A DNA stretch of 48,000 nucleotides from Fischerella sp. CENA71 (GTDB taxonomy: Bacteria; Cyanobacteriota; Cyanobacteriia; Cyanobacteriales; Nostocaceae): the NCBI GenBank assembly GCA_024239075.1, contig JANBVI010000072.1, forward strand, positions 16,622-64,621, in the 5' to 3' direction. Shown here one piece after another: positions 6,253-36,637 of this stretch (its first letter is position 1; each line of letters opens with the position of its first letter). The notes under the pieces are model-generated. The model searched no databases. It was given only the letters and a program-made list of their open reading frames with translations, and had not been told where the DNA came from. Position numbers and translations under genes: made by a program.

Positions 6253-6352
6253 GGATTGGGGATTGAGAGACGCGGGGACGCGGGGATAGAAGGACAAGGG
6301 GAATAACTATTGCCTATTGCCTATTGACCAATTCTCTGTTCCCTGTTCCCTC
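6253..6352. repeat. Composite short-repeat spacer: G-rich units (GGGGATT/GACGCGG/GGACAAG) then heptamers CTATTGC x3 and CTGTTCC x2
   Basis: ggattggggattgagagacgcggggacgcggggatagaaggacaagggg... ctattgc ctattgc ctattga ... ctgttcc ctgttcc. The G-rich part recurs inside the next gene (7797-7912) and after its stop (8753-8769). Confidence 0.85.
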
Positions 6353-6378
6353 TCATGAATTACTAATTATTAATAACT

Positions 6379-8748: not shown

Positions 8749-8752
8749 TTTT

Positions 8753-8769
8753 TGGGGATTGGGGACAAG
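8753..8769. repeat. Partial copy of the G-rich repeat (GGGGATTGGGGACAAGG) after the ABC exporter stop
   Basis: The 14-mer ggggattggggaca is identical to 7827-7840. Confidence 0.7.
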
Positions 8770-8817
8770 GAAGAAAATATAAAACTAAGCATTTACTATT
8801 GACTTTTAATTAAAATT

Positions 8818-11742: not shown

Positions 11743-11872
11743 TTTTTTGTCATTGATAATTCATATTCGGTTAATACTCCTCTTCTGTTACTTTCCCTAG
11801 ATGAAAAGATGTAACCCTTGCCAGTCAGGAGTTTCAGTTTATTTTACAATCAAAATTTCCTCTCAACAAAAA

Positions 11873-11902
11873 GATGCTTCCTGTAAAAAAACAAGAAGCA
11901 TC
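11873..11902 (-). terminator. 8-bp hairpin with T-run on the minus strand
   Basis: GATGCTTC (11873-11880) / GAAGCATC (11895-11902). The minus strand reads GATGCTTC-ttgtttttttacag-GAAGCATC-TTTTTGTTG. It lies downstream (minus sense) of the IS remnant. Confidence 0.35.
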
Positions 11903-12052
11903 AAATCAGTGTTTTGACTAAGGCGACTTCACCATTACAGTACAATTGTACTATTAAGTATGGTGATCGCACAATTCATTCTTGTATCTAAGGTTCAGAG
12001 TAGAAGGATGATTTTTATCTACTCGTAGCAAAAAAGAGAATGGGGATGAGTT

Positions 12053-12087
12053 GGTCGGCATCGGAATTTGCCGACCATTGGTCGGCA
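12053..12087. repeat. Triple GGTCGGCA / TGCCGACC / GGTCGGCA alternating inverted repeat
   Basis: ggtcggca(12053-60) tcggaatt tgccgacc(12069-76) att ggtcggca(12080-87) aaaaattttt. Two mutually exclusive 8-bp hairpins are possible. It may be an IS end or a terminator. Confidence 0.4.
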
Positions 12088-12192
12088 AAAATTTTTGGTT
12101 AGGGTGGGGTAAAAATATTTTTGCAAGAGGTCTATTCTTCCAAGAACACCATGTCAGCCTCCGCCCACCTTGGTTTTTCTCCTCACCTTGGT

Positions 12193-12330
12193 TTAGATCA
12201 AAGCCCTTCTAAGCCCAGCCCAAGCAGCCAAGTGTTCGGCACTTGGGAAACGAGTCATATCGGTGCCAATTTCCGAGACAATAATATCAGCATATCGGCG
12301 CTGACACTTGGATACCTCTTCCGGTCGATT
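12193..12330 (-). pseudogene. IS110-family (DEDD) transposase remnant, C-terminal fragment only
   Basis: Minus-strand frame reads NRPEEVSKCQRRYADIIVSEIGTDMTRFPSAEHLAAWAGLRRALI*. The string IGTDMTRFPSAEHLAAWAGL matches the conserved IS110/IS116/IS902 C-terminal motif (EIG.DMS.FPSA.HLASWAGL). The fragment is bounded by stops, with no intact upstream ORF. Confidence 0.55.
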
Positions 12331-13275
12331 CTAACTTGCGACTCCTTTAGATTTTCTTTATGAATCGGCTCTGAAACTTTAAGATTTTATTTTAAATGTA
12401 GATCAGTCCTTATTATCTAACTTTTGACTGAACCTTCTATAACTTTTGTTAGAGGATTATGTTTTGAAAACCATAACAATAGAGATAGTTATTTTTGGCT
12501 TTACGAGGTATGTCTAATACCCGATCAATCTAACCTAAGCATTAGATATTGGAAACATGGATTCAGTATTTAGCAGACAGAACCATTTACTCTTCTAGGT
12601 CTATCGATCTCATCGATCTCTATGATTTGGAAATTAGTTTATTGATCAATTGCTTGAGTTTTAGGTATCTGGTTAATATTAACAAGTTACCAAAATTACT
12701 AACTAGATAATCATAAGCAATTACAATCTCTTTCTGTCTGCTGGTTAAATAATTGAGTACTAAACAGTATCGAGACTACAAAAAATTGAGCAATCACGTT
12801 ACCAATGCTTTTGATTTTTTTGGCTCAGTAATTTTTGCGTGATGTACAAACAGATACCAATCCGTTTATCATCTTTAAACAAACCGACTACAACAGAGTA
12901 TCCACAACTTCTCTGGTGATAAATCAGTGAGAATTAACTAAGGGTAGCTGCTCAATGTCCAAGCATCTGCCACTGATACTAGATTTTGTCTCTTCAGACC
13001 ATCAGTTGATAATTTAGCTTGATAACGAGTTAAAACAATCTTTCCTTCTTAATTAACTTGCCTTGAAAAATTTCTATACTCTTTTCTCCAAGAACTCAAA
13101 ACTCTAACGGAACCATATTGCCTTGAAATCTCCGGGTATTTCAGCAAATTGGCAAAGGTATTGGTATTGATATCAAGAAAAGTTAAGTTACGCGATTGCC
13201 TTGTAGTTCACGCTTTAATAAGTGACTACAAACTTTTGATTGTTAACGCTAATTTACTTAGAAGGTAGCAAGCGA

Positions 13276-14301
13276 ATGCACTCATTAGCTAAAATTGATA
13301 TCTCTTCAAAAGAAAATGTATACGCCTTGAATTCAGGAATCTTAACGACTATTGGTAATACACCTCTAATCAAGTTGAAAAATGTTTTTAAAGATGCTCA
13401 ATTTCAACTTTTTGCTAAGTTAGAAATGTTTAACCCTGGAGGTAGTATTAAAGACCGTCCAGCCTTAAATATCCTGTTGAATGCATTTGAAAAAGGGGAT
13501 ATAAAACCCGGAGATACAATTATTGAATCAAGTTCAGGAAACTTAGGTATTGGACTAGCACAAGCAAGTATTATGTTGGGGTTACATTTTATATGCGTAA
13601 TTGACCCGAAAACAACACAACAAAATATTAACATCCTCAAAACTTATGGTGCAGAAGTTGATTTGGTCACAAAACCAGACCCGATTACAGGTGATTTTTT
13701 ACCCGCGCGCATTAATCGTGTGAAATCATTGTTGAGTTCAATTCCCAATAGCTTTTGGTGTAATCAGTATGCCAATTTGAATAATGCACGCGCTCATTAT
13801 CAAACAATGCACGAAATTATGAGTGCTCTTGATGGTAGATTGGACTACCTATTCTGTTCAACAGGTAGTTGCGGAACACTGCGTGGTTGCGCTGAATATA
13901 TCAGAAGTCACGATTTCAACACAAAAGTGATCGCCGTTGATGCGAAAGGGAGTGTGATTTTTGGTGACAAACGAAGTAAACGGCTCATCCCAGGACATGG
14001 GGCCGCGCGAGTTCCAGAATTGTTTCAACCTGGACTAGCAGATGTATATGTGCATGTCACTGATATGGACTGTATTATCGGTTGTCATCGCTTGCTTCGG
14101 AGTGAAGCGATATTAGCAGGAGGTTCATCAGGAGGAGTCATAGCAGCAATTGACAAAAAACGAAAAGAGATACCAATTGGTGCAACTTGTGCTGCCATAC
14201 TTTGCGACCGTGGTGAACGTTATCTTGACACCATTTATTCAGAAACTTGGGTTAAAGAACATTTTGATGAACTTGTAAAAATGCAATACCTTGCGTCTTG
14301 A
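13276..14301 (+). CDS. sbnA: PLP-dependent CysK-fold enzyme, SbnA-like (N-(2S)-2-amino-2-carboxyethyl-L-glutamate synthase; L-2,3-diaminopropionate pathway step 1)
   Basis: 342 aa from the ATG at 13276 (SD GAAGG 11 nt upstream; the track start at 13240 is TTG). GNTPLIKL...EMFNPGGSIKDRPA (PLP-Lys motif of the cysteine-synthase fold), SSGNLG, GSCGT. It is followed 51 nt later by an ornithine-cyclodeaminase-family gene, the SbnA/SbnB (VioB/VioK) arrangement. Confidence 0.7.
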   Translation: MHSLAKIDISSKENVYALNSGILTTIGNTPLIKLKNVFKDAQFQLFAKLEMFNPGGSIKDRPALNILLNAFEKGDIKPGDTIIESSSGNLGIGLAQASIMLGLHFICVIDPKTTQQNINILKTYGAEVDLVTKPDPITGDFLPARINRVKSLLSSIPNSFWCNQYANLNNARAHYQTMHEIMSALDGRLDYLFCSTGSCGTLRGCAEYIRSHDFNTKVIAVDAKGSVIFGDKRSKRLIPGHGAARVPELFQPGLADVYVHVTDMDCIIGCHRLLRSEAILAGGSSGGVIAAIDKKRKEIPIGATCAAILCDRGERYLDTIYSETWVKEHFDELVKMQYLAS

Positions 14302-14352
14302 AATAGGTGATGAATCTAAAGTTCAATTTTCCCAACTACAGGAGATTTACTA

Positions 14353-15390
14353 ATGAATTATGATGACATTCTTCTATTAAAAGGATCGGAGATAATTGCG
14401 CTATTCAAAAACCGCGAACAGGAAATATTACAAACAGTCAAATCCGCCTATCAAATACATGCTCAAGGCAAGAGTTGTCTGCCTCATTCTAGTTTTTTGC
14501 GTTTTCCTAACAATGAAAAAGACAGAATTATTGCCTTGCCAGCTTACTTAGGTGGTAAAGTGAATACTGTCGGTATCAAATGGATTGCTTCTTTTCCAGA
14601 TAATCTAGCTTTGGGCATGGAACGAGCTTCGGCTGTTTTAATCCTAAATTCGGCACAAACTGGTCATACACAAGCGATTATGGAAAGTTCTGTTATCAGT
14701 GCAAAACGCACTGCTGCTAGTGCTGCGATCGCAGTTCAGTACATCTATGGCAAGCAAATTTTAACCCGATTGGGACTGATTGGTACTGGATTGATTAATT
14801 TTGAAATAATTCGCTTTGTGCTAGCTACATATCCTGAAATTGAAACTTTATTAATTTATGACTTAAGTCGAGAAAGAGCAGAGAAATTTAAACATAAGTG
14901 TCAACAACTCTCTCCAGCATTGGAAATTGTAATTGTAGAACAACCCAATGATGTATTTCAAAATACCTCAGTTATTTCTTTCGCAACAACCGCAACAAAA
15001 CCACACATTTTCGATATTTCAAAATGTAGTCCTGGTAGTCTAATTTTGCACATTTCTTTACGAGACTTATCACCAGAAATTATCTTATCGGCTGACAATA
15101 TCGTTGATGATATAGACCACGTATGTAGAGCGCAAACATCTATTCACTTAGCTGAACAACAAACGGGTAATAGGGATTTTATTAGATGTACTATTGGCGA
15201 TATTATTAATAGTATTGTTCCAGTACGAGAGGACAACAACAAGATAGCGATATTCAGTCCTTTTGGACTGGGTGTTCTTGACCTCGCGTTAGGACAGCTA
15301 GCTTACAAACTTGCGATTAAGCAAAATCAAGGAACTACAATCGAGTCATTTTTACCAGTTTCTTGGTTACAGCGGGAAGAATATTACTGA
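14353..15390 (+). CDS. sbnB: Ornithine cyclodeaminase/mu-crystallin family NAD enzyme, SbnB-like (L-2,3-diaminopropionate pathway step 2)
   Basis: 345 aa with SD AGGAG upstream. Rossmann motif LGLIGTGLINFEI, plus KRTAASAAIA typical of the OCD family. It is paired with the SbnA-like gene and sits immediately upstream of the NRPS. Confidence 0.7.
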   Translation: MNYDDILLLKGSEIIALFKNREQEILQTVKSAYQIHAQGKSCLPHSSFLRFPNNEKDRIIALPAYLGGKVNTVGIKWIASFPDNLALGMERASAVLILNSAQTGHTQAIMESSVISAKRTAASAAIAVQYIYGKQILTRLGLIGTGLINFEIIRFVLATYPEIETLLIYDLSRERAEKFKHKCQQLSPALEIVIVEQPNDVFQNTSVISFATTATKPHIFDISKCSPGSLILHISLRDLSPEIILSADNIVDDIDHVCRAQTSIHLAEQQTGNRDFIRCTIGDIINSIVPVREDNNKIAIFSPFGLGVLDLALGQLAYKLAIKQNQGTTIESFLPVSWLQREEYY

Positions 15391-15549: not shown

Positions 15550-18500
15550 ATGACTGACTACTGGAAAACTTATGATGCAGCAAAATTACCCCTGACATTT
15601 ACTCAAACTAAGGATTTAAAATCCAGCCATAACTTTCATAATATATTTACAGCTTTTCATCTCACAGGCTCCCTAAACGTGGCAGCACTTAGGCAGAGCC
15701 TGAACATGATTGTGCAACGTCACGAAATCTTGCGAACCACATTTGCAACTATCCATGGGCAATCAGTCCAAATCATTGCTCCTTCCTTAACCTTGACACT
15801 ACCAATAGTGGACTGGTGTCAGTTGTCAGAAGAGGAAATGTCTGTCGAGTTGCAAAAACTAGCAATCGAGGAAGTTCAGCAACCCTTTAACTTAACCAAC
15901 AAACCCTTGTTGCGGGTGACCTTATTACGGATAGATGAAGAAGAACACGTGCTACTCCTCGTTATGCACCATACTATTAGTAACAGTTGGTCTGTAGAGG
16001 TGTTCAACCGAGAGATAGCAGCGCTTTACGGGGCCTTGGACACGTCGCTTTCTAATCTCTCAATCAAGTATACGGATTTTGCTTATTGGCAGTGTCAACG
16101 GCTAACTACACAGGTATTAGCAAATCAACTTACCTACTGGAAGCAGCAATTAGCTAATACCTCTGCCCTGCTAGAAATACCCACTAACCGTCCTCCACTT
16201 ACAGAGCAAACTTTCCGAAAGGCAAGGCGATCGCAATTACTGCCGTTTCAGCTAACCGAATCGCTTAAAGCTCTAAGCCAACAGACAGGGGTTACTCTGT
16301 TGGCGACATTACTAGCAGCATTTGTAACGTTACTCTACCGCTATACTAATCAACATGACATTTTGGTGGGAGTGCCAATCACTAACCGCAATGTTGAAAC
16401 CAAGGATTTAATCCGTCTCTTTGTTAACACGCTGGTATTACGCACCCGATTTCAAGGTAATCTAACCTTCAGCGAGCTACTAAAACAAGTAGACGAGACA
16501 ATTGTGGCTGCCTATGATCACCAAGACCTGCCCTTTAAGCATCTAGTTGAGGAACTCCAAGCACCTCTAATTCAGACAATGTTGGTGTTGGAAGATACCT
16601 CAATTGATAGACCAGAACTGTCGAAGTTGACAATCACTCCTATAGAATTGCATAACATTATTAGCAAGTTAGATTTAACACTAGTAATACAAGACACAGA
16701 ATCAGGATTACTCTTAAATTGGGAATACAACACAAATTTGTTCGATAGCACAACAATTGAGCGGATGGCTCTGAATTTCCAGACCTTGCTGGAAAGCATA
16801 GTTACTGATCCGCAGCAACGAGTTGCTCAATTACAATTGCTAAGTGCCACCGAACAACATCAATTACTGGTGGAATGGAACGACACAAGTGCCGACTATC
16901 CCCTAGAACAGTGTTTTCCAAGAGTTTTTGAAGCTACCGTTGCGCGGACTCCAGATGCAGTCGCGGTGGTTTCTGTAGACGCGCAGAGTGCGGCTTCTCG
17001 CAGAGTAAACCAGCAACTAACATATCAACAATTAAATGCTCGTGCAAACCGTTGGGCAAGGTATCTAGTTGAGCAAGGAGTCGGAAAAGAAACGATAGTC
17101 GCTTTACTGTGCGATCGCAATATTGATTTCTTAACGGCGATGCTAGCAGTATTCAAAGCAGGTGGAGCATACCTACCTCTCAATCCTCAGCATCCACCTG
17201 AACGGATACAGCAAGTACTAGAACAAAGCCAAGCACCATTGGTATTAGCAGCTAGCTGTTGGGCATCGATTATTTCCTCAATAGACATCGAGTCACAGCT
17301 GCTGTGCCTTGAAGAGTTGGATTCTCAAGAGTACTCCAGTGAAAACCTTCCTGTACGCTGCTATCCAGAGAACTTGGCTTACGTGATTTACACCTCCGGT
17401 TCGACTGGAAAGCCTAAAGGGGTGATGATTGAACATCGCGGAATGCTTAATCATTTGTACGCAAAGGTGACAGATTTACAGTTAACAAAGAGCGATGTCG
17501 TCGCGCAAACTGCAACACAAATATTTGATATTAGTATTTGGCAATTTTTAGCGGCATTACTAGTTGGTGGACGAGTTGAGATTGTCTGCACTGAAATTGC
17601 TGGCGATCCTGCCCAGTTACTTTCATTGGTGCAACGTCAGCAAATCTCAATTTTAGAAATTGTACCATCGCTATTACGTATGATACTTCAACACATCAAA
17701 CTCAACGGTGTAGCTGGTACTGAACTGTCTTGTTTACGATGGTTATTACTAACTGGTGAAACTTTGCCACCACAGTTATGTCGTCAGTGGTTCGAGCATT
17801 ATCCGCAGATTCCGATGATGAATGCATACGGTCCAACAGAATGTTCCGACGATGTCACTCATCATCCTATCTACGTACCGCCTCAAAAGGAAGTAGTTAA
17901 TCTGCCGATTGGTCGTCCGGTGTCAAATACACAACTATATATTCTCGATAGCCAGTTGCAACCCGTACCAATTGGAGTTACTGGAGAACTTTATGTTGGA
18001 GGTCTTGGTGTTGGGCGTGGCTATTTATACAATTCAATTCTCACAGAAAAAGCTTTTATCAAAAATCCCTTTACTAAAGAAGCAGGCGCCCGCTTGTATA
18101 AAACAGGCGATAAAGCTCGCTACCTGAGTGATGGTAATATCGAGTTTCTTGGTCGCATTGACTACCAGGTAAAGATTCGTGGATTTCGGATTGAGTTAGG
18201 AGAAATTGAGGTGGTTTTGGCACAGCATCCGCAAGTACGAGAAGTGGTAGTCGTCGCCAAGGAGGAACAATCAGGGAATCAGTATCTAGTGGCTTACGTT
18301 GTCCCTAACCAAGAAATCACTACCACCGAACTACGCGACTTCCTTAAACAAAAGCTGCCCGAATACATGATACCTACGGCGTTTGTTCTGTTGAAGTCCA
18401 TGCCCTTAACTTCTAACGGTAAGGTAGATCGTCATGCTTTACCCGCACCAGAGTTTCAACTCTGTCTTAATGCTAATTTTGTTGCTCCCCATACACCTAC

Positions 18501-21500
18501 GCAAGAAATTCTTGCCAAGTTATGGGCAGAAGTCCTTAATCTCAAACAAATTGGTATTTACGACAACTTCTTCGAGATGGGAGGAAACTCTCTACTTGCT
18601 ACTCAGGTTATTTCGCGGTTGCGCTCCCTTTTTGGGGTTGAGTTGCCCTTACGTCGCTTGTTTGAAACTCCGACTGTGGGAGAGTTGAGTGAATTGATAA
18701 GGGCTTGCAACTGTGCTATTGAGTTACAGATACCAAAGATCGCCCCAGTTCCACGGAGCGAATACCTACCTCTATCCTTTGCTCAAGCTAGATTGTGGTT
18801 CCTCAATCAATTAGATGAGAAAAGTGCTATCTACAACATGCCAGAACCCCTACGTATTCTTGGTTCTCTCAACGTAGCGGCTTTGGAAATGGCTGTGCAA
18901 GAAATTATACGGCGTCATGAAATTTTACGTACTACCTTCAAGATAGTAAATAGTTTTCCAGTATCGATAATTGCTAGTAGTACGACCATAAATATACCAG
19001 TAGTTGACCTGCAACATTTGCCAGAACAAGAACAGTCTGAACAAGTGCAACAATTAGCGATCGCAGAGTCTCAACAACTCTTTGACCTCTCAAACGGTCC
19101 ATTGCTGCGAGCTACTTTGCTGCGGCTAGAGGAGCAATCTCACGTGCTGTTACTAACAATGCACCACATTGTTTCTGATGGCTGGTCAATGGGGATATTT
19201 GTAAAGGAATTATCTGCACTTTATCAAGCTTTTGATTCAGGTAAGCCTGCGGAGTTATCAGAGTTATCAATTCAATATGCTGACTTTGCTCATTGGCAAA
19301 AAGAATGGCTAACTGGAGAGGTACTGCAAACCCAACTCAACTACTGGAAGCAACAATTAGCTTCATCACCACCTCTATTAGAACTACCTACTGACCATCC
19401 CCGTCCATCAATTCAAACATTTCAAGGTAGCACAGAATATTTTCAACTGGATCGGGAGTTGACTTCTCAGCTCAAAACTCTCTCTCACAAATCAGGAGCT
19501 ACCCTATTTATGACCCTGTTGGCAGTTTTTGCCACTTTACTTTCACGTTACAGTGGTCTAGAGGATATAGTTATCGGCTCCCCCATTGCCAACCGCAACT
19601 GTAGTGAGTTTGAATCGTTAATTGGCTTTTTTGTCAATACCCTAGTATTGCGTACCCAACTGCAAGGAAATCCTACTTTCAGTGAGTTACTAGAACGAGT
19701 GCGGGAAATGACATTAGGAGCCTACGAACACCAAGACCTACCTTTTGAGAAACTAGTTGAGGAACTTCAACCAGAGCGTTCCCTCAGCCATACACCACTG
19801 TTCCAAGTGATGTTCGCATTGCAAAATGCGCCAATAGAGAAACTGGAGCTGCCAAATTTAACCATAACTCCATTCAAAATGGAGAGTGTCACCGCCAAGT
19901 TTGATTTAACCTTATTAATGGAGGAAACAGAGGCAGGATTGACTGGGGAATTAGTATACAACAAAGACCTATTTGATGCCGCTACCATTAGACAGATGGC
20001 AAGGCATTTTCAGCTCTTGTCAGAAGGTATTGTCACCAATCCCCAAGAGCGAGTAGGACAATTACCACTATTAAATAGTGCTGAACTGCATCAATTGCTT
20101 GTCGAGTGGAACGACACCCAAGTAGATTATCCCCAAGATAAATGTATCCATCAATTGTTTGAAGAACAGGTGGAGCGATCGCCAGATGCGATCGCAGTTG
20201 TGTTTGAAAGCAAACAACTGACTTACCGAGAATTGAACGACCGTGCCAACCAGTTAGCCCACTATCTGCAAACTTTGGGAGTAAAACCAGAAGTACTTGT
20301 GGGAATCTGTGTTGAGCGCTCCTTGGAAATGATAGTCGGACTACTGGGGATTCTCAAGGCAGGTGGTGCTTATGTACCCTTAGACCCAGCATATCCCCAA
20401 GATAGATTGAGTTTCATGTTGTCAGACTCGCAGATTCCAGTCTTGCTAACTCAAGAAAAGCTAGTAGCAAATCTACCTGAGTATGCGGGGCATATGATTC
20501 GCTTAGATGCAGATTGGCAAGTAATTTCTCAGCAGAGCCATACCAATGCGAACAGCCATGTACAACCTAATAACTTAGTTTATGTAATTTATACTTCAGG
20601 TTCTACAGGACAACCGAAAGGCGTCCTAGTCACCCATCAAGCATTGTGCAACCTGGCGACTTCACAGATTCGCATTTTCCACGTTCAGTCTGATAGTCGT
20701 GTACTTCAATTTGCGTCCTTTAGCTTTGATGCTTCGATTTCAGAAGTTGTCATGGCACTTTGTGCTGGAGCACAACTTTATTTAGGAACGCGAGAATCTT
20801 TGCTTCCAGGGTCAAGTTTAACGCAACTGTTACACGACCAAGCGATTACCCATGTTACGTTCCCTCCCTCTGCATTAGCGGCGATGCCACCACATGTAGA
20901 CTTTCCAGACTTACGCACTATAATCGTAGCAGGAGAAGCCTGTCCGCCTGATTTAGTATCGCAATGGTCTAGAGGGCGACATTTCATCAATGGTTACGGA
21001 CCAACTGAAGCAACTGTTTGTGCTACCACCGCTGTTTGTACCAATGGCGAATCTCAACTACCTATCGGGCGCCCAATCGCCAACACCCAAGTCTATATAC
21101 TTGATCGCTATCTCCAACCTGTTCCTATCGGTGTTCCTGGGGAACTACATATTGGAGGTGTTGGTTTAGCAAGAGGTTACCTTAATCGTTCAGAGTTAAC
21201 ATTAGAGAAATTTATCCCTAATCTTTTTAGCAAAGAAAACTCTGCACGCCTTTATAAAACAGGTGACTTAGCCCGTTACTTACCAGATGGCAACATCGAG
21301 TACCTTGGTCGCATTGACGAGCAGGTAAAAATTCGCGGTTTCCGCATTGAGTTAGGAGAAATTGAAGCTGTATTGAGCCAACACCCCCAAATACGGGAAG
21401 CTGTGGTGATTGTAAGAGAAGATAAACCAGGCAATAGGCGGCTAGTAGCTTATATAGTACCCAATTTTGAGCCACTTTCCAGCAACGAACTGCGTAACTT

Positions 21501-21933
21501 ACTAAAAGAGAAACTAGCCGAATACATGATACCCTCAGCATTTATAATGCTAGAGTCTCTACCTCTAACTCCGAATGGCAAAGTAGACCGTAAAGCACTT
21601 TCTGTACTCAAACAGACACATACTGAATTAGAAACTACTTTAGTGCTACCTCGTACACCAGTAGAGGAGATACTTGCAGACATTTGGATAGAAATCCTGG
21701 GTTTGGAGCAGGTCGGAATTTACCAAAATTTCTTTGAGTTAGGCGGCCATTCTCTACTAGGTACCCAGGTTATTTCTAGAATACAAGATTCCTTAGAAGT
21801 AAGACTTCCTTTGCGTACACTGTTTGAGAATCAAACTATCGCTGATTTAGCTGTGAGCATTCTCCAGTGTTTTGCCGAGGAGACAGAGCTAAAAGAGATG
21901 GATAGTATTCTGGCTGAGTTAGAAAAACTTTAA
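15550..21933 (+). CDS. NRPS 1, two modules: C(degenerate)-A-T-C-A-T
   Basis: 2127 aa. C1 has MHHTISNSWS in place of HHxxxDG. A1: LAYVIYTSGSTGKPKG, FDISIWQ, NAYGPTECSDDV, YKTGDKARY, GRIDYQVKIRGFRIELGEIE, NGKVDR. T1: FFEMGGNSLLA. C2: PLSFAQARLWFL, MHHIVSDGWS. A2: LVYVIYTSGSTGQPKG, FDASISE, NGYGPTEATVCAT. T2: FFELGGHSLLG. A short helical C-terminal tail (EETELKEMDSILAELEKL) is docking-like. Confidence 0.95.
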   Translation: MTDYWKTYDAAKLPLTFTQTKDLKSSHNFHNIFTAFHLTGSLNVAALRQSLNMIVQRHEILRTTFATIHGQSVQIIAPSLTLTLPIVDWCQLSEEEMSVELQKLAIEEVQQPFNLTNKPLLRVTLLRIDEEEHVLLLVMHHTISNSWSVEVFNREIAALYGALDTSLSNLSIKYTDFAYWQCQRLTTQVLANQLTYWKQQLANTSALLEIPTNRPPLTEQTFRKARRSQLLPFQLTESLKALSQQTGVTLLATLLAAFVTLLYRYTNQHDILVGVPITNRNVETKDLIRLFVNTLVLRTRFQGNLTFSELLKQVDETIVAAYDHQDLPFKHLVEELQAPLIQTMLVLEDTSIDRPELSKLTITPIELHNIISKLDLTLVIQDTESGLLLNWEYNTNLFDSTTIERMALNFQTLLESIVTDPQQRVAQLQLLSATEQHQLLVEWNDTSADYPLEQCFPRVFEATVARTPDAVAVVSVDAQSAASRRVNQQLTYQQLNARANRWARYLVEQGVGKETIVALLCDRNIDFLTAMLAVFKAGGAYLPLNPQHPPERIQQVLEQSQAPLVLAASCWASIISSIDIESQLLCLEELDSQEYSSENLPVRCYPENLAYVIYTSGSTGKPKGVMIEHRGMLNHLYAKVTDLQLTKSDVVAQTATQIFDISIWQFLAALLVGGRVEIVCTEIAGDPAQLLSLVQRQQISILEIVPSLLRMILQHIKLNGVAGTELSCLRWLLLTGETLPPQLCRQWFEHYPQIPMMNAYGPTECSDDVTHHPIYVPPQKEVVNLPIGRPVSNTQLYILDSQLQPVPIGVTGELYVGGLGVGRGYLYNSILTEKAFIKNPFTKEAGARLYKTGDKARYLSDGNIEFLGRIDYQVKIRGFRIELGEIEVVLAQHPQVREVVVVAKEEQSGNQYLVAYVVPNQEITTTELRDFLKQKLPEYMIPTAFVLLKSMPLTSNGKVDRHALPAPEFQLCLNANFVAPHTPTQEILAKLWAEVLNLKQIGIYDNFFEMGGNSLLATQVISRLRSLFGVELPLRRLFETPTVGELSELIRACNCAIELQIPKIAPVPRSEYLPLSFAQARLWFLNQLDEKSAIYNMPEPLRILGSLNVAALEMAVQEIIRRHEILRTTFKIVNSFPVSIIASSTTINIPVVDLQHLPEQEQSEQVQQLAIAESQQLFDLSNGPLLRATLLRLEEQSHVLLLTMHHIVSDGWSMGIFVKELSALYQAFDSGKPAELSELSIQYADFAHWQKEWLTGEVLQTQLNYWKQQLASSPPLLELPTDHPRPSIQTFQGSTEYFQLDRELTSQLKTLSHKSGATLFMTLLAVFATLLSRYSGLEDIVIGSPIANRNCSEFESLIGFFVNTLVLRTQLQGNPTFSELLERVREMTLGAYEHQDLPFEKLVEELQPERSLSHTPLFQVMFALQNAPIEKLELPNLTITPFKMESVTAKFDLTLLMEETEAGLTGELVYNKDLFDAATIRQMARHFQLLSEGIVTNPQERVGQLPLLNSAELHQLLVEWNDTQVDYPQDKCIHQLFEEQVERSPDAIAVVFESKQLTYRELNDRANQLAHYLQTLGVKPEVLVGICVERSLEMIVGLLGILKAGGAYVPLDPAYPQDRLSFMLSDSQIPVLLTQEKLVANLPEYAGHMIRLDADWQVISQQSHTNANSHVQPNNLVYVIYTSGSTGQPKGVLVTHQALCNLATSQIRIFHVQSDSRVLQFASFSFDASISEVVMALCAGAQLYLGTRESLLPGSSLTQLLHDQAITHVTFPPSALAAMPPHVDFPDLRTIIVAGEACPPDLVSQWSRGRHFINGYGPTEATVCATTAVCTNGESQLPIGRPIANTQVYILDRYLQPVPIGVPGELHIGGVGLARGYLNRSELTLEKFIPNLFSKENSARLYKTGDLARYLPDGNIEYLGRIDEQVKIRGFRIELGEIEAVLSQHPQIREAVVIVREDKPGNRRLVAYIVPNFEPLSSNELRNLLKEKLAEYMIPSAFIMLESLPLTPNGKVDRKALSVLKQTHTELETTLVLPRTPVEEILADIWIEILGLEQVGIYQNFFELGGHSLLGTQVISRIQDSLEVRLPLRTLFENQTIADLAVSILQCFAEETELKEMDSILAELEKL

Positions 21934-22017: not shown

Positions 22018-25000
22018 ATGACAGAGTTATTTTCAAAACAATTAGTTATGAGTAATTTTAGTCAACGTATCGCTAATCTATCTCCAGAAAAACAGGCACT
22101 ACTAGAGCAACGTCTGATGAAAAAGGGTGCTAACGTAGCCAAAAAGCAATTAATTCCACGTAGACAAACATCAGACCCTTGCCCTTTATCTTATTCTCAG
22201 CAAAGATTGTGGTTCTTGAATCAGTTGGAACCTAATAACGCTTTTAACATCTCCATTGCAGTACGTTTGAGCGGTATCTTGAATGTAAAAACACTGCAAC
22301 AAACACTCAATGCAATTGTAGCTCGTCATGAAGTATTACGTACAACTTTTATAACTGTAGATGAAAATCCAATACAAGTTATTGCTGAAATACCAACAGT
22401 AAAAATTACGGTAATTGATCTCAGCGACCAGTATAATATCGACCATGAAGCAGAAGTCAAACGAATTCTGACAAAAGAAGCGCAATATTTGTTCAACTTA
22501 TCCTCTGATTTGATGTTACGTCCTACTTTACTGCGGTTGAGTGAAGAGGAATACGTACTACTTTTAGTAATGCATCACGTTGCCTCGGATGGTTGGTCGA
22601 TGGGAATTCTTTTTCGAGAACTTGCAGGTTTCTACGAAGCTTTTTCTACGGGAAAATCATCACCATTCCCTGAATTACCAATTCAATATGCTGACTTTGC
22701 TTATTGGCAACGGCAGTGGTTGAGTGAGGAGGTACTGCAAAGCCAACTAAACTACTGGAAACGACAATTAGCGGAGTCTCCAAGTCTTTTACCGCTACCA
22801 ACTGATAGACCACGCCCCCCAATTCAGACATTCCAAGGTGGTACTAAATATTTTCAACTTAATCGGGACTTAACGCAAAAACTCAAAACCCTGAGTCAAC
22901 ACTCAGGAGCAACTTTGTTTATGACTCTGTTGTCTGGTTTTGCTGTTTTACTCGCGCGCTATACCTCTCAAGAAGATATAGTGATTGGTTCCCCCATCGC
23001 TAACCGCAATCGCAGTGAAATCGAGCCATTAATTGGCTTCTTTATTAATACTTTAGTACTACGCACTCAACTTCAAGGAAATCCCACTTTTTTAGAATTA
23101 CTAGAACGAGTCCGAGAGATGACTTTGGGTGCTTATGACCATCAAGACTTACCTTTCGAGAAGCTTGTTGAGGAACTTCAGCCGGAACGTTCTCTTAGTC
23201 ATGCACCTTTATTTCAGGTGATGTTTGTCTTACAAAATGCTCCTATGGGGAAACTGGAATTACCAGGTTTAACTTTAACTCCTTTGGAAGTAGATGATGT
23301 CACCGCAAAAAATGATTTATTTCTCTCAATGACGGATACCGAAGCGGGATTGACCGGCGAGATGGTATATAACAGTGACCTATTTAATGCAAGTACTATC
23401 AAGCGGATGGCAGGACATTTTGAAACATTACTCGAAAGTATCGTAGCCGATCCTCAGCAAAAAGTGGGGCAATTACCAATATTGAGTGCTGAGGAGCAGG
23501 AGCAGTTATTAGTGGAATGGAACAACACTGATACAGAGTATCCTTTAGAGCAATGTTTCCCAGAAGTATTTGAAGCAATTGTTGAGCGAACACCTGATGC
23601 AGTAGCGGTGGTATTTGTAGAGGCCCACAGTGGAGCTTCTCCAACAGTAGAGCAATTAACATATCAACAATTAAACGCTCGTGCTAATCGTTGGGCAAGG
23701 TATTTGGTAGATCAAGGAGTCGGAGCAGAAACAATAGTTGCTTTGCTGTGCGATCGCAACATCGATTTGTTGACGGCAATGCTGGCAATATTAAAAGCAG
23801 GTGGAGCCTACTTACCTATTAACCCTGAGCATCCAGGCGAACGAATTGAGCAACTATTGTCACAAAGTCAAGTACCTGTATTATTATCAGCTAGTTGTTA
23901 TTCATCCCTAGTTAGTAGTCTTGACACATCATTAGAATTATTTTTACTTGAAGATTTAGATTGCCAACACTACTCAAGTCTAAATTTGCCCAGGCGATGC
24001 CATCAAGATCACTTAGCTTATGTGATTTACACCTCCGGTTCGACAGGAAAACCGAAAGGGGTGATGATAGAACATCGCGGAATGCTCAATCATTTGTATG
24101 CTAAGGTCACAGATTTAGATTTAGACGCCACCGATGTTGTCGCCCAAACTGCAAGCCAAACATTTGATATTAGTATTTGGCAATTTTTAGTGGCATTGCT
24201 AGTAGGTGGACGAGTTGAGATTGTCAGCAGTGAAATCCTCACTGACCCTGCCCAGTTACTCTCCATACTTCAGCATCGGCAAATCTCTATATTGGAAGTT
24301 GTACCATCATACCTGCGGATGATGCTGCAACAGATTGAAAACAGTGATATTAAACCTAATTTATCTGTGTTGCGATGGTTGTTGTTAACGGGTGAAACTT
24401 TGACACCCCCATTGTGCCGTCAATGGTTGGATTACTATCCAACCATCCCAATCATGAATGCCTATGGTCCAACCGAGTGTTCGGATGATGTTACCCATTA
24501 TCCAATTTACACACCACCCAAACAGGAAATACTAAATTTACCGATTGGTCGTCCTGTAGCAAATACCCAGTTATATATACTTGATACTCAATTGCAACCA
24601 GTGCCAATAGGAATTCCTGGAGAACTCTATGTTGGTGGTATTGGTGTGGGACGTGGTTATTTACACGATTTAGAACAGACACAACTGGCTTTTATACACA
24701 ATCGATTTCAACAGACAACATGTGGTGTCTCGACATCAAGGTTGTATAAAACTGGTGATCAAGCCCGTTTCCTCCCAGATGGCAATATTGAATTCCTTGG
24801 TCGCATTGATTACCAGGTGAAGATTCGCGGCTTCCGCATTGAGTTGGGAGAAGTTGAAGCAGTACTGACTCAACATCCATATGTTCAAGAGGCAGTGGTG
24901 ATTTCTAGGGAAAACCTACCTAACAACCAATATTTAGTCGCTTATATTGTCCCTAATGAAGAAATGACTACAACTGGAGAACTGCGGGATTTCCTAAAAC

Positions 25001-25431
25001 AGAAGTTGCCTGACTACATGATACCTACAGCATTTGTGATGTTGGAGTCTATACCTTTAACTTCAAACGGTAAAGTAGACCATCGTGCATTACCCGCACC
25101 GGATATGGCATTGATTTCAACCGTTAACTTTGTTCCTGCTTGCACACCTACGCAAGAAATTCTCGCGAAATTGTGGTCAGAAATTCTTAATCTTGAACAA
25201 GTAGGCATACACAACAATTTCTTTGAATTGGGGGGACATTCTCTATTAGCTACTCGAGTAATTTCTAGGTTGCGTGCGCTGTTTGGGGTGGATTTGCCTT
25301 TGCGGCGTTTGTTTGAAGAACCTACTGTAGCTGCCTTAGCTGACAGCATTGACAACATTCGTTCAACAATACAAAAGTTACAAACCAATCCAAATTACCA
25401 ATCAGAGGAACGCGAGGAAATTGAGCTATGA
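22018..25431 (+). CDS. NRPS 2, one module: C-A-T
   Basis: 1137 aa. N-terminal LSPEKQALLEQRL helix. C: PLSYSQQRLWFL, MHHVASDGWS. A: LAYVIYTSGSTGKPKG, FDISIWQ, NAYGPTECSDDV. T: FFELGGHSLLA. The stop overlaps the next start (ATGA at 25428-25431). Confidence 0.95.
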   Translation: MTELFSKQLVMSNFSQRIANLSPEKQALLEQRLMKKGANVAKKQLIPRRQTSDPCPLSYSQQRLWFLNQLEPNNAFNISIAVRLSGILNVKTLQQTLNAIVARHEVLRTTFITVDENPIQVIAEIPTVKITVIDLSDQYNIDHEAEVKRILTKEAQYLFNLSSDLMLRPTLLRLSEEEYVLLLVMHHVASDGWSMGILFRELAGFYEAFSTGKSSPFPELPIQYADFAYWQRQWLSEEVLQSQLNYWKRQLAESPSLLPLPTDRPRPPIQTFQGGTKYFQLNRDLTQKLKTLSQHSGATLFMTLLSGFAVLLARYTSQEDIVIGSPIANRNRSEIEPLIGFFINTLVLRTQLQGNPTFLELLERVREMTLGAYDHQDLPFEKLVEELQPERSLSHAPLFQVMFVLQNAPMGKLELPGLTLTPLEVDDVTAKNDLFLSMTDTEAGLTGEMVYNSDLFNASTIKRMAGHFETLLESIVADPQQKVGQLPILSAEEQEQLLVEWNNTDTEYPLEQCFPEVFEAIVERTPDAVAVVFVEAHSGASPTVEQLTYQQLNARANRWARYLVDQGVGAETIVALLCDRNIDLLTAMLAILKAGGAYLPINPEHPGERIEQLLSQSQVPVLLSASCYSSLVSSLDTSLELFLLEDLDCQHYSSLNLPRRCHQDHLAYVIYTSGSTGKPKGVMIEHRGMLNHLYAKVTDLDLDATDVVAQTASQTFDISIWQFLVALLVGGRVEIVSSEILTDPAQLLSILQHRQISILEVVPSYLRMMLQQIENSDIKPNLSVLRWLLLTGETLTPPLCRQWLDYYPTIPIMNAYGPTECSDDVTHYPIYTPPKQEILNLPIGRPVANTQLYILDTQLQPVPIGIPGELYVGGIGVGRGYLHDLEQTQLAFIHNRFQQTTCGVSTSRLYKTGDQARFLPDGNIEFLGRIDYQVKIRGFRIELGEVEAVLTQHPYVQEAVVISRENLPNNQYLVAYIVPNEEMTTTGELRDFLKQKLPDYMIPTAFVMLESIPLTSNGKVDHRALPAPDMALISTVNFVPACTPTQEILAKLWSEILNLEQVGIHNNFFELGGHSLLATRVISRLRALFGVDLPLRRLFEEPTVAALADSIDNIRSTIQKLQTNPNYQSEEREEIEL
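23374..24945 (+). repeat. Copy 1 of a ~1572-bp near-identical direct repeat (C-A linker plus most of an A domain)
   Basis: Offset is exactly 3497 nt to copy 2. The encoded protein is identical from SDLFNASTIKRM to VVISRENLP except A/T at 23410. Antisense track ORFs 23399-23662, 24491-24682 and 24692-24880 are duplicated at +3497 (the latter two identical, the first with one substitution). Confidence 0.9.
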
Positions 25432-36550: not shown

Positions 36551-36637
36551 TTAATTGACAGCATTGCAGATGTGCATTTCTTACTCACAATCTAAATTTC
36601 ATAATCCAAAATCTAAACTAAAATCCAAAATCGGCAG

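What the first reader, a model, noticed from the sequence alone, without database searches (positions are those of the whole stretch)
13276..15390. SbnA/SbnB-type L-2,3-diaminopropionate synthase pair heading a cyanobacterial NRPS operon
A CysK-fold PLP enzyme (NPGGSIKDRPA) is followed 51 nt later by an ornithine-cyclodeaminase-family NAD enzyme (LGLIGTGLI). This two-gene unit makes L-Dap from O-phospho-L-serine and L-glutamate in staphyloferrin B biosynthesis (SbnA/SbnB). It also feeds Dap into NRPS lines as VioB/VioK and CmnB/CmnK. Here it sits 159 nt upstream of, and co-directional with, an NRPS whose A domains look diamine-specific. A dedicated Dap supply in a cyanobacterium is also relevant because 2,3-Dap has been proposed as the precursor of the neurotoxin BMAA. 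No methyltransferase is present here, so that link is only contextual.
Basis: partly seen in the sequence, partly recalled or inferred. Interest (0 to 1): 0.7.

Follow-up and report, generated by a model that had tools for sequence, protein, structure and literature searches.

The report
Diaminopropionate synthase pair feeding an NRPS
Two adjacent genes that make the unusual amino acid 2,3-diaminopropionate sit at the head of a five-module peptide assembly line in a Fischerella-type cyanobacterium; the gene pair is a known kind and already annotated as such, but the diamino-acid-rich peptide it most likely feeds has not been described.

Summary
ORF 13276-14301 and ORF 14353-15390 pass NCBI's curated equivalog cut-offs for SbnA (433 bits, cut-off 350) and SbnB (417 bits, cut-off 327). 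Cysteine synthase, CBS, OCD and alanine dehydrogenase models all fall far below theirs. The closest solved structures are S. aureus SbnA and SbnB. SbnA keeps K47, R132 and Y152, but S185 is Gly, as in 69 of 120 close homologues. The pair runs without a terminator-like site into three NRPS genes with five modules. Modules 1, 3, 4 and 5 carry the pocket code DIWELTADDK and module 2 is aromatic (Tyr-like). This code has the two-Asp "mode 3" anchor of the Dap-bound SulM A3 structure. It is also identical to the Dab domain of PvdL module 4. Context favours Dap. The same code sits beside SbnA/SbnB in cyanobacteria, a Chloroflexota MAG and soil metagenomes, and 3 of 6 relatives picked by A-domain similarity have the pair within 10 kb. 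The window has no diaminobutyrate aminotransferase. The predicted product is Dap-Tyr-Dap-Dap-Dap. The window has no methyltransferase, so the BMAA link stays contextual. NCBI already names this protein SbnA, and cyanobacterial SbnA/SbnB are published. Verdict: a new member of a known kind.

The parts
11743..13275 (.). 1.5-kb non-coding stretch upstream of sbnA. It presumably holds the promoter and leader of the operon. A terminator-like hairpin at 12067-12089 (+) closes the upstream ABC-transporter unit.
   Evidence: Only short ORFs are present. There is no Rfam match. GC is 0.36 against 0.38-0.43 in the genes. The promoter role is inferred, not shown.
13276..14301 (+). sbnA: a PLP-dependent N-(2-amino-2-carboxyethyl)-L-glutamate (ACEGA) synthase, 341 aa.
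   Evidence: TIGR03945 scores 433 bits against a cut-off of 350; the next best model is CBS at 234 against 510. The best PDB hit is S. aureus SbnA 5D84 at 274 bits. K47, R132 and Y152 are kept and S185 is Gly. It clusters with the SbnA clade. It is 100% identical to the NCBI protein 'SbnA [Fischerella sp. CENA71]'.
14353..15390 (+). sbnB: an NAD+-dependent ACEGA dehydrogenase of the OCD/mu-crystallin family, 345 aa. It would release L-Dap and 2-oxoglutarate.
   Evidence: TIGR03944 scores 417 bits against a cut-off of 327; the next best model is an OCD-family model at 132 against 417. The best PDB hit is S. aureus SbnB 4M54 at 160 bits, then alanine dehydrogenase at 106 and CmnK at 78. The Gly-rich motif LIGTGLI aligns with IIGCGLI of SbnB.
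15550..21933 (+). NRPS 1: degenerate C, A(DIWELTADDK), T, C, A(DASTIAGVCK, aromatic/Tyr-like), T. These are modules 1 and 2.
   Evidence: Pfam domains are and the motifs. The codes come from alignment to a verified 1AMU sequence. The first C domain has HHTISNSW in place of HHxxxDG and a degenerate N-terminal motif.
22018..25431 (+). NRPS 2: C, A(DIWELTADDK), T. This is module 3.
25428..32876 (+). NRPS 3: TubC-type docking domain, C, A(DIWELTADDK), T, C, A(DIWELTADDK), T, TE. These are modules 4 and 5. The TE has the Ser motif GWSFG.
32851..34176 (+). MFS transporter whose start overlaps the end of NRPS 3 by 26 nt. It is the likely exporter of the product.
   Evidence: It matches Pfam MFS_1 and MFS_3 and overlaps NRPS 3. 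An MFS gene also flanks SbnA/SbnB in L084 and L166.
35186..37843 (+). HlyD-family membrane-fusion protein (35186-36550) and MacB/FtsX-type permease (36638-37843). They may be part of the export machinery.
   Evidence: Pfam matches are. The same pair lies next to SbnA/SbnB in L083 and L084. Membership of the cluster is inferred.

Best explanation
The two genes encode an SbnA/SbnB-type L-2,3-diaminopropionate (Dap) synthase. By homology, SbnA (PLP, Schiff-base Lys) eliminates phosphate from O-phospho-L-serine and adds the amine of L-glutamate to give ACEGA. SbnB (NAD+) then oxidises ACEGA and releases L-Dap plus 2-oxoglutarate. The pair is transcribed with three NRPS genes, five modules in all. 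Modules 1, 3, 4 and 5 have a short-diamino-acid pocket: Asp235 would bind the alpha-amine and Asp330/Asp331 the side-chain amine. Module 2 has an aromatic, Tyr-like pocket. The assembly line therefore most likely builds Dap-Tyr-Dap-Dap-Dap, a polycationic pentapeptide. A Ser-type thioesterase releases it, in linear or cyclic form, and the co-encoded MFS and HlyD/MacB transporters export it. What is shown here: family membership of both enzymes, the domain order, the pocket residues and the conserved synteny. What is inferred: the substrates of SbnA/SbnB, Dap rather than Dab as the A-domain substrate, the peptide sequence and its export.
For: - **Family scores.** Both proteins pass the equivalog HMM cut-offs.
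- **Solved relatives.** The nearest solved structures are SbnA and SbnB themselves.
- **SbnA residues.** K47, R132, Y152, Q151 and S75 are invariant in 120 homologues. R132 separates the SbnA clade from CBS/CysK-like proteins.
- **Gene-pair cassette.** Of 80 metagenomic SbnB loci, 52 carry an SbnA homologue, most of them directly upstream on the same strand with gaps of about 12-220 nt.
- **Operon layout.** The gaps are 51 and 159 nt and hold no terminator-like site.
- **Pocket codes.** The codes are DIWELTADDK four times and DASTIAGVCK once.
- **Structural precedent.** SulM A3, crystallised with L-Dap, reads DVWEMNADD. Asp8 and Asp9 bind the beta-amine, N2411T at position 6 is active, and its homologues have Ile at position 2 (PMC12042044).
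- **Same code beside SbnA/SbnB elsewhere.** It occurs in Calothrix NIES-4071, Scytonematopsis and a Herpetosiphonaceae MAG. It also occurs in 8 of the 28 metagenomic SbnB loci that hold any A domain.
- **Reverse test.** Six relatives were chosen by A-domain similarity and contig length. Three have a PALP+OCD pair within 10 kb. Two of the other three sit at contig ends.
- **No alternative acceptor or supply.** No other A-domain type in the operon could take Dap. The window has no class-III aminotransferase for Dab supply.
Against: - The 10-residue code is identical to the A domain of the PvdL chains 9up2/9lcq. I infer those chains cover PvdL module 4, whose substrate is L-2,4-diaminobutyrate (PMC11366639).
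- Over the pocket region the window domains are 54% identical to that domain and only 40% identical to SulM A3.
- SbnA residue S185, reported as one of three residues that select O-phosphoserine (PMC12414870), is Gly here.
- Nothing was tested biochemically.
- The window is from a MAG, and 1.5 kb of the module 3 and module 4 A domains is 100% identical at the DNA level. The module count could therefore be affected by assembly.
- No PPTase or MbtH gene is in the window.
Confidence: 0.8

Rival explanations
1. The four DIWELTADDK domains load L-2,4-diaminobutyrate (Dab), as PvdL module 4 does. The product would then be a Dab-rich peptide, and SbnA/SbnB would supply Dap for something else or as a minor substrate.
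For: The code matches the PvdL A domain in 9up2/9lcq at 10 of 10 positions. Those chains were assigned to E-C-A-T, that is module 4, whose substrate is Dab. The window domains are more similar to it (54%) than to SulM A3 (40%). One clade member, P0132, has a class-III aminotransferase nearby and no PALP/OCD pair.
Against: The 48-kb window has no DABA aminotransferase. SbnA/SbnB sit in the operon and would have no consumer. The same pocket recurs next to SbnA/SbnB in several phyla. SulM A3 shows that this two-Asp pocket binds Dap, and its N2411T variant, which has Thr at position 6 as here, keeps and slightly raises Dap activity.
Confidence: 0.12
2. The pair is a housekeeping cysteine synthase or cystathionine beta-synthase plus a true ornithine cyclodeaminase or alanine dehydrogenase, and lies next to an NRPS by chance.
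For: Both belong to those superfamilies (Pfam PALP and OCD_Mu_crystall). Position 185 is Gly, as in CysK/CBS-type proteins.
Against: CBS scores 234 against a cut-off of 510. CysK scores 209 against 351. The best OCD-family model scores 132 against 417, and alanine dehydrogenase 125 against 409. R132 is present. The A-then-B cassette is conserved. The gene is 100% identical to a PGAP-named SbnA.
Confidence: 0.02
3. The pair makes a different vicinal diamino acid, for example 2,3-diaminobutyrate from O-phospho-threonine as in the DabABC route. The S185G change might open the pocket for this.
For: S185 is replaced by Gly in this clade. A GHMP-kinase gene lies 5 kb from SbnA/SbnB in Nostoc sp. DSM 114160, locus L084. 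SbnA-family enzymes can accept related substrates (PMC10906522).
Against: The window has no GHMP or threonine kinase. In the DabABC route described in PMC10906522, L-Asp is the amine donor and DabC cleaves the adduct; I believe DabC is a lyase rather than an OCD-family dehydrogenase, which is from memory. Here the partner is an SbnB equivalog. The Gly state is shared by 69 of 120 homologues, including loci with the same NRPS context.
Confidence: 0.03
4. The cluster makes a staphyloferrin-like or other Dap-containing siderophore.
For: SbnA/SbnB were first defined in a siderophore pathway. Mantas et al. 2022 stress a possible role of 2,3-Dap in siderophore formation in some cyanobacteria (PMC9414260).
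Against: The window has no IucA/IucC synthetase, TonB-dependent receptor or ferric-siderophore ABC importer. A Dap4-Tyr peptide has no hydroxamate or alpha-hydroxy-carboxylate ligand and at most one phenolate, unless it is tailored by enzymes not identified here.
Confidence: 0.05

Closest known systems
SbnA/SbnB of Staphylococcus aureus (staphyloferrin B; PDB 5D84 and 4M54)
   Same: It is the same two-enzyme cassette in the same A-then-B order. These are the best solved-structure matches (274 and 160 bits). K47, R132 and Y152 are conserved. Both window proteins pass the equivalog models built around this pair.
   Different: In S. aureus Dap goes into an NRPS-independent siderophore; here the pair heads an NRPS operon. 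S185 is Gly in the window protein. The window has no IucA/IucC genes.
SulG/SulH plus SulM A3 of the sulfazecin monobactam pathway (PDB 9N1V)
   Same: An SbnA/SbnB-type supply feeds an NRPS A domain with the 'mode 3' pocket: Asp at code positions 8 and 9, Glu at 4 and Trp at 3. The motif after the two Asp is THH in both.
   Different: The codes differ at positions 2, 5 and 6 (DVWEMNADD against DIWELTADD), and the pocket regions are only 40% identical. SulM has one Dap module and a Cys thioesterase that forms a beta-lactam, and the pathway needs an N-sulfotransferase. Here there are four such modules, a Ser thioesterase (GWSFG) and no sulfotransferase.
PvdL module 4 of pyoverdine synthesis (PDB 9up2, 9lco-9lcq)
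   Same: The 10-residue code DIWELTADD is identical, and this is the closest solved A domain (141 bits over the pocket region, 54% identity). In both systems a Tyr module is followed by this domain type.
   Different: PvdL module 4 uses L-2,4-diaminobutyrate, which PvdH (an aminotransferase) supplies; that point is established knowledge. Here the operon encodes SbnA/SbnB and no aminotransferase. PvdL reads DDVAFF and GPAE where the window reads DDVTHH/Y and GPTE, and its loop is 6 residues shorter. The window has no E domain after the Tyr module.
CmnB/CmnK and VioB/VioK (capreomycin and viomycin)
   Same: A Dap synthase pair inside an NRPS antibiotic cluster. CmnB keeps K47, R132, Y152 and S185.
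   Different: They are much more distant: CmnB scores 140 bits and CmnK 78 bits. The tuberactinomycin clusters add carbamoylation and capreomycidine chemistry that is absent here.
Poly(L-diaminopropionic acid) pathway of Streptomyces albulus PD-1 (NjxA/NjxB plus a Pls-like synthetase)
   Same: A cysteine-synthase-like enzyme and an OCD-like enzyme supply Dap for a Dap oligomer (PMC4668381). The window NRPS is predicted to join three Dap residues in a row.
   Different: PDAP is made iteratively by a single-module membrane synthetase that lacks C and TE domains. Here the enzyme is a classical multimodular NRPS of fixed length.
Cyanobacterial SbnA/SbnB homologues surveyed by Mantas, Nunn, Codd and Barker 2022 (as summarised in PMC9414260)
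   Same: That survey makes the same claim: a limited subset of cyanobacteria carries SbnA/SbnB, which is relevant to 2,3-Dap and BMAA.
   Different: I could not read the paper, so I do not know whether this locus or its A-domain code was analysed. This report adds the module-level prediction and the link between the pocket code and the SbnA/SbnB gene pair.

Membership tests
SbnA (TIGR03945, ACEGA synthase) | Score above the curated equivalog cut-off, and above all sister models | tested here: met
   It scores 433 bits against a cut-off of 350. CBS scores 234/510, CysK 209/351 and CysM 192/394.
SbnA (TIGR03945, ACEGA synthase) | Fold-type II PLP enzyme with the Schiff-base lysine (K47 in S. aureus) | tested here: met
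   It matches Pfam PALP. The Lys of NPGGSIKDR aligns with K47.
SbnA (TIGR03945, ACEGA synthase) | O-phosphoserine-selecting residues R132 and Y152 | tested here: met
   Both are conserved here and in 120 of 120 homologues. R132 is Y, H or S in the CBS/CysK-like sequences.
SbnA (TIGR03945, ACEGA synthase) | Third O-phosphoserine-selecting residue, S185 | tested here: not met
   The window protein has Gly, in the motif CSTGSCGT. Among 120 homologues, 69 have Gly and 51 have Ser. S. aureus SbnA and CmnB have Ser. The next residue is Ser here. The effect on activity is unknown.
SbnA (TIGR03945, ACEGA synthase) | Groups with characterised SbnA rather than with CysK/CysM/CBS | tested here: met
   In the NJ tree it falls in the clade that holds S. 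aureus SbnA and the other PALP genes adjacent to an OCD-family gene. The tree has no bootstrap values.
SbnA (TIGR03945, ACEGA synthase) | [quoted passage not shown] | not testable with these tools
   This needs an enzyme assay.
SbnB (TIGR03944, ACEGA dehydrogenase) | Score above the curated equivalog cut-off, and above the OCD and alanine dehydrogenase models | tested here: met
   It scores 417 bits against a cut-off of 327. The OCD-family model scores 132/417, alanine dehydrogenase 125/409 and ornithine cyclodeaminase 57/350.
SbnB (TIGR03944, ACEGA dehydrogenase) | OCD/mu-crystallin fold with a Gly-rich NAD motif, and SbnB as the closest solved relative | tested here: met
   It matches Pfam PF02423. 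4M54 scores 160 bits against 106 for alanine dehydrogenase. LIGTGLI aligns with IIGCGLI.
SbnB (TIGR03944, ACEGA dehydrogenase) | Encoded directly next to an SbnA gene | tested here: met
   The gap is 51 nt on the same strand. The arrangement is conserved in 52 of 80 SbnB loci.
SbnB (TIGR03944, ACEGA dehydrogenase) | Substrate-binding and catalytic residues defined in the SbnB-ACEGA structures; NAD+-dependent cleavage to Dap and 2-oxoglutarate | not tested
   I did not have the residue list, because the primary paper is not in the held library. The activity needs an assay.
'Mode 3' Dap-activating A domain (SulM A3 type) | Asp at code positions 8 and 9, Glu or Gln at 4, and Asp at 1 | tested here: met
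   DIWELTADDK is present in modules 1, 3, 4 and 5. SulM A3 reads DVWEMNADD.
'Mode 3' Dap-activating A domain (SulM A3 type) | Asn at position 6, which hydrogen-bonds the beta-amine | tested here: not met
   The window has Thr. The SulM A3 N2411T variant keeps and slightly raises Dap activity, so this feature may not be essential.
'Mode 3' Dap-activating A domain (SulM A3 type) | Selectivity for Dap over Dab | tested here: inconclusive
   The code equals that of the Dab domain of PvdL module 4. Genomic context favours Dap. An adenylation assay is needed.
Sulfazecin-type monobactam pathway | Terminal thioesterase with catalytic Cys, and an N-sulfotransferase | tested here: not met
   The TE motif is GWSFG, with Ser. 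No ORF of at least 150 aa has a sulfotransferase domain.
Staphyloferrin-type NRPS-independent siderophore pathway | IucA/IucC-family synthetases and a siderophore uptake system | tested here: not met
   None is present among the 21 ORFs of at least 150 aa.
Peptide-bound BMAA (paenilamicin-type N-methyl-Dap) pathway | An N-methyltransferase domain or gene acting on Dap | tested here: not met
   The NRPS and the rest of the window have no methyltransferase domain. The MT domain in the Calothrix locus L081 sits in a module with the code DAWFLGNVV, which I read from memory as Leu-like.
DabABC (2,3-diaminobutyrate) pathway | A threonine kinase (GHMP family) plus a lyase-type partner | tested here: not met
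   The window has no GHMP kinase, and the partner is an OCD-family SbnB equivalog.

The most novel reading that the evidence does not exclude
This operon family, widespread in heterocystous cyanobacteria, could be the main cellular source of peptide-bound 2,3-Dap. Dap-rich peptides such as Dap-Tyr-Dap-Dap-Dap could then be the 'bound' pool from which BMAA signals arise, through methylation by an unlinked methyltransferase. This is the kind of macromolecule-bound route that Nunn and Codd proposed. A second reading is also not excluded: the Tyr-diamino acid pair, whose A domain is the closest solved relative of PvdL module 4, could cyclise into a pyoverdine-like chromophore.
Probability: 0.05. 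Interest if true: 0.75.

Novelty: new member of a known kind. Interest (0 to 1): 0.38.

Why it matters
The gene pair is ordinary for its family and already annotated. There are three practical points.

- **An orphan product.** The NRPS behind the pair is predicted to put a short diamino acid in four of five positions. I found no description of such a cyanobacterial peptide in the held literature. The predicted masses give a direct LC-MS target.
- **An annotation rule.** The DIWExTADD pocket is known from PvdL as a Dab code. When it sits beside SbnA/SbnB it very probably means Dap. Code-based predictors would therefore mislabel these clusters. The 'mode 3' pocket, reported as unique to sulfazecin, is in fact widespread.
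- **The BMAA debate.** The locus gives a defined, knock-out-able source of 2,3-Dap in a cyanobacterial lineage. It carries no methyltransferase.

Tried and rejected
- **Exact-sequence look-up of SbnB.** Nothing was on record.
- **Genome-contig scan with an SbnA alignment.** The scan picked the generic pattern NPGGS[IV]KDR and returned mostly CBS/CysK loci. Only L001-L004 were useful. These loci later served as the outgroup.
- **Full-text searches for the code strings.** DIWELTADDK, DASTIAGVCK and variants gave no hits. The Tyr reading of module 2 therefore rests on my own knowledge of DASTxAAVCK-type codes and on its similarity to the Phe code DAWTIAAICK.
- **A wrong turn on PvdL.** I first read the PDB PvdL chains as modules 1-2. 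That would have made DIWELTADDK a Glu code and a serious conflict. A FAAL query did not hit these chains. A C-domain query hit them twice, upstream of the A domain. The architecture is therefore (T)-E-C-A-T, that is module 4 (Dab). The Glu rival was dropped.
- **Monobactam idea.** Rejected, because the TE has Ser and there is no sulfotransferase.
- **NIS siderophore idea.** Rejected, because there are no IucA/IucC or uptake genes.
- **Riboswitch or leader RNA upstream of sbnA.** No Rfam family matched at gathering threshold.
- **MbtH-like gene.** None was found by motif search.
- **Crude regex for SbnA next to SbnB.** It undercounted and was replaced by tblastn.
- **Mantas et al. 2022.** The paper is not in the held library.
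Full report
**Observation.** A + strand ORF at 13276-14301 (341 aa plus stop) contains NPGGSIKDRPA. After 51 nt, a + strand ORF at 14353-15390 (345 aa) contains LGLIGTGLI. After 159 nt, a 2127-aa NRPS ORF starts at 15550. An alternative TTG start at 13240 exists. The ATG version is 100% identical over its full length to an NCBI protein named 'MAG: 2,3-diaminopropionate biosynthesis protein SbnA [Fischerella sp. CENA71]'. That identifies the source of the window and shows the gene is already annotated this way.

**Identity of the two enzymes.**
- Against NCBIfam, the first protein scores 433 bits on TIGR03945 (SbnA equivalog, cut-off 350).
- Its next hits are CBS (234, cut-off 510), CysK (209, cut-off 351) and CysM (192, cut-off 394). 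All are far below their cut-offs.
- The second protein scores 417 bits on TIGR03944 (SbnB equivalog, cut-off 327).
- An OCD-family model scores 132 (cut-off 417), alanine dehydrogenase 125 (cut-off 409) and ornithine cyclodeaminase 57 (cut-off 350).
- The best solved structures are S. aureus SbnA (5D84, 274 bits; next 190) and S. aureus SbnB (4M54, 160 bits; alanine dehydrogenase 106; CmnK 78).
- I built an NJ tree from window SbnA, cyanobacterial homologues, S. aureus SbnA, CmnB, three PALP genes found next to OCD genes, and 17 CBS/CysK-type sequences. The window protein falls in the SbnA clade. The tree has no bootstrap values.

- The residues reported to select O-phosphoserine are R132, Y152 and S185 (Kobylarz et al., as cited in PMC12414870).
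- K47, R132, Y152, Q151 and S75 are invariant in the 120 closest homologues.
- R132 is the discriminating position. It is Arg in every SbnA-type sequence, including CmnB, and Tyr, His or Ser in the CBS/CysK-like set.
- S185 is Gly in the window protein, in the motif CSTGSCGT. It is Gly in 69 of the 120 homologues, which are those nearest the window, and Ser in 51. S. aureus SbnA and CmnB have Ser.
- The Gly state is shared by homologues that lie in the same intact sbnA-sbnB-NRPS arrangement: P0013 in Calothrix NIES-4071 and P0008 in Scytonematopsis. I therefore read it as a tolerated clade-specific change. This is one defining feature that is not met, and its effect is untested.

**Conservation of the cassette.** I scanned metagenome contigs with an SbnB alignment and kept 80 loci at 47-82% identity. 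Of these, 52 also carry an SbnA homologue. Nearly all lie directly upstream on the same strand, with gaps of roughly 12-220 nt. In the window, neither intergenic gap has a terminator-like site. A hairpin followed by a T-run at 12067-12089 closes the upstream ABC-transporter unit. A single transcription unit from sbnA into the NRPS genes is therefore likely, but it is inferred.

**The assembly line.**

| Gene | Coordinates | Domains | Modules |
|---|---|---|---|
| NRPS 1 | 15550-21933 | C-A-T-C-A-T | 1, 2 |
| NRPS 2 | 22018-25431 | C-A-T | 3 |
| NRPS 3 | 25428-32876 | TubC docking-C-A-T-C-A-T-TE | 4, 5 |

- An MFS transporter follows at 32851-34176, then HlyD and MacB-type genes.
- The first C domain is degenerate, with HHTISNSW in place of HHxxxDG and a decayed N-terminal motif.
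- In Calothrix the equivalent of that first C domain is a 169-aa fragment, and in Scytonematopsis it is absent. It is probably a relic, and module 1 probably starts the chain.
- There are no E, MT or Cy domains.
- The TE has the usual Ser motif, GWSFG.

**Substrate pockets.** I wrote the GrsA PheA sequence from memory and verified it against 1AMU, with one mismatch that I corrected. I then aligned the five A domains to it.
- Modules 1, 3, 4 and 5 read DIWELTADDK.
- Module 2 reads DASTIAGVCK, which is close to the Phe code DAWTIAAICK. From my own knowledge it is of the Tyr type.

The DIWELTADDK pocket has two experimentally anchored relatives.
- **SulM A3 of sulfazecin.** It was crystallised with L-Dap (PDB 9N1V) and reads DVWEMNADD. 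Asp at positions 8 and 9 hold the beta-amine ('mode 3'). The N2411T variant, with Thr at position 6 as here, keeps and slightly raises Dap activity. Its homologues carry Ile at position 2 (PMC12042044). I read the pocket sequence directly from the PDB alignment.
- **The A domain in the PvdL chains 9up2 and 9lco-9lcq.** It is the best solved match to the window pocket region (141 bits, against 101 for SulM A3). Read off the alignment, its code is identical: DIWELTADD.

I first took those PvdL chains to be PvdL modules 1-2, which would have meant Glu. Two tests rejected this. A FAAL query does not hit them. A C-domain query hits them twice upstream of the A domain. The architecture is therefore (T)-E-C-A-T, that is the end of module 3 plus module 4. 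The substrate of module 4 is L-2,4-diaminobutyrate (PMC11366639). The open question is Dap against Dab.

**Dap or Dab.** On code alone the answer would be Dab. Over about 185 residues the window domains are 54% identical to PvdL A4 and 40% identical to SulM A3. Context points the other way.
- **Forward test.** The same code sits directly behind SbnA/SbnB in three loci:
  - Calothrix NIES-4071 (L081);
  - Scytonematopsis (L083), where it occurs twice;
  - a Herpetosiphonaceae MAG (L004).

  It also occurs in 8 of the 28 metagenomic SbnB loci that hold any A domain. These include contigs whose SbnB is only 50-56% identical to the window protein.
- **Link to the SulM branch.** One of those loci, L138 (DIWQSTADD), is closer to SulM A3 than to PvdL (149 against 115 bits). 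Domains in an SbnA/SbnB context therefore span both branches of this pocket type.
- **Reverse test.** I searched with the module 1 A-domain core and obtained 120 relatives from Acidobacteria, actinomycetes, Chloroflexota and others. Most carry DIWxxTADD and a DDV(T/S)H tail.
  - Three have a PALP+OCD pair within 10 kb: L166, L168 and L169. L169 also has an OTCase-like gene.
  - One lies inside a larger NRPS cluster with no such pair in the flank (L167).
  - Two sit at contig ends. One of these has a class-III aminotransferase nearby and may be a true Dab member.
- **The window itself.** All 21 ORFs of at least 150 aa were scanned. None is an aminotransferase. The only other A-domain type in the operon is aromatic, so SbnA/SbnB would have no consumer if these domains took Dab.

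I put Dap at about 0.8 and Dab at about 0.12. The A domains may accept both.

**Mechanism proposed.**
- By homology, SbnA condenses O-phospho-L-serine with L-Glu to give ACEGA, and SbnB oxidises ACEGA to L-Dap and 2-oxoglutarate.
- The NRPS assembles Dap-Tyr-Dap-Dap-Dap. The Ser-TE releases it, and the MFS and HlyD/MacB transporters export it.
- My calculated masses are [M+H]+ 526.273 (linear), 508.263 (cyclic) and 582.336 if the diamino acid is Dab.
- Related loci vary the peptide: Gly-Dap-Tyr in L086, Dap-Tyr-Tyr in L087 and Dap-Tyr-Dap in L083. This looks like a family of Dap/Tyr peptides rather than one compound.
- The function is unknown. A small polycation could be antimicrobial, like poly-Dap (PMC4668381). 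Nothing in the window marks the product as a siderophore.

**Comparison with what is known, and novelty.** The kind is well known: an SbnA/SbnB-type Dap supply inside a secondary-metabolite cluster, as in staphyloferrin B, viomycin and capreomycin, sulfazecin and poly-Dap. SbnA/SbnB in a subset of cyanobacteria has been published in the BMAA context (Mantas et al. 2022, via PMC9414260). I could not read that paper. This locus is therefore a new member of a known kind. Two points appear to be additional:
- the module-level prediction of a Dap-rich peptide;
- the finding that the 'mode 3' pocket is widespread, is present in PvdL module 4, and is strongly linked to SbnA/SbnB. PMC12042044 says this pocket was not found in any known BGC other than sulfazecin.

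The BMAA link remains contextual. The window has no methyltransferase. The MT domain in the neighbouring Calothrix NRPS sits in a module with the code DAWFLGNVV, which I read from memory as Leu-like.

**Limits.**
- No biochemistry was done.
- The NJ tree has no bootstrap values.
- The reverse-association sample is six loci.
- The Tyr call rests on memory.
- The window comes from a MAG with a 1.5-kb exact repeat inside the NRPS.

Noticed in passing
window 23400-24899 and 26897-28396: The A domains of modules 3 and 4 are 100% identical at the DNA level over about 1.5 kb (offset 3497 nt). The flanking C and T regions are only 44-81% identical. This is either recent gene conversion between modules or a MAG assembly artefact.
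   Followed up: partly
window 15550-16870: The N-terminal C domain of NRPS 1 is degenerate: HHTISNSW replaces HHxxxDG, and the N-terminal motif has decayed. In Calothrix (L081:12358-12867) the equivalent is a 169-aa fragment, and in Scytonematopsis (L083) it is absent. It looks like a decaying relic.
   Followed up: partly
window 3526-11742; L084:1-3185: A cNMP-binding protein, a HlyD protein, a C39-peptidase ABC exporter and a second ABC transporter lie upstream of the operon. The first three gene types also lie beside SbnA/SbnB in Nostoc sp. DSM 114160, on the opposite strand. That locus has no NRPS within 10 kb.
   Followed up: no
L084:15830-16933: In Nostoc sp. DSM 114160 a GHMP-kinase gene lies about 5 kb downstream of SbnA/SbnB, after HlyD/FtsX/ABC genes. 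It could be a DabA-like threonine kinase, which would point to 2,3-diaminobutyrate. This was not examined.
   Followed up: no
L081:3180-8096: In Calothrix sp. NIES-4071 an NRPS gene with an embedded methyltransferase domain lies just upstream of SbnA/SbnB. Its A-domain code is DAWFLGNVV, which I read from memory as Leu-like, not the diamino-acid type. It does not support N-methyl-Dap.
   Followed up: partly
L169:1583-2548: In an Acidobacteria contig an OTCase-like carbamoyltransferase gene sits between a stand-alone A-T protein (DIWEVTADDK) and SbnA/SbnB. This recalls the ureido-Dap chemistry of the viomycin and zwittermicin pathways.
   Followed up: no
PDB chains 9up2 and 9lco-9lcq (PvdL), residues about 1110-1259 of 9up2: The PvdL module 4 (Dab) A domain reads DIWELTADD, which is the 'mode 3' two-Asp signature. 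PMC12042044 states that this signature was not found in any known BGC other than sulfazecin.
   Followed up: yes
window 38035-43370 (- strand): Two tandem GMC-oxidoreductase paralogues, a GST-like gene and a styrene-monooxygenase-like FAD enzyme converge on the end of the cluster. Whether they tailor the peptide, for example by Tyr oxidation, is unknown.
   Followed up: no
window 34177-35185 and 11743-13275: Two long non-coding stretches of 1.0 and 1.5 kb flank the core operon. Both are AT-rich, have only short ORFs, and have no Rfam match.
   Followed up: partly
window 659-1318 (- strand); L083:8313-8981: A LuxR/GerE-type response regulator lies in the window. A similar one lies directly upstream of SbnA in Scytonematopsis. 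It may be the cluster regulator.
   Followed up: no
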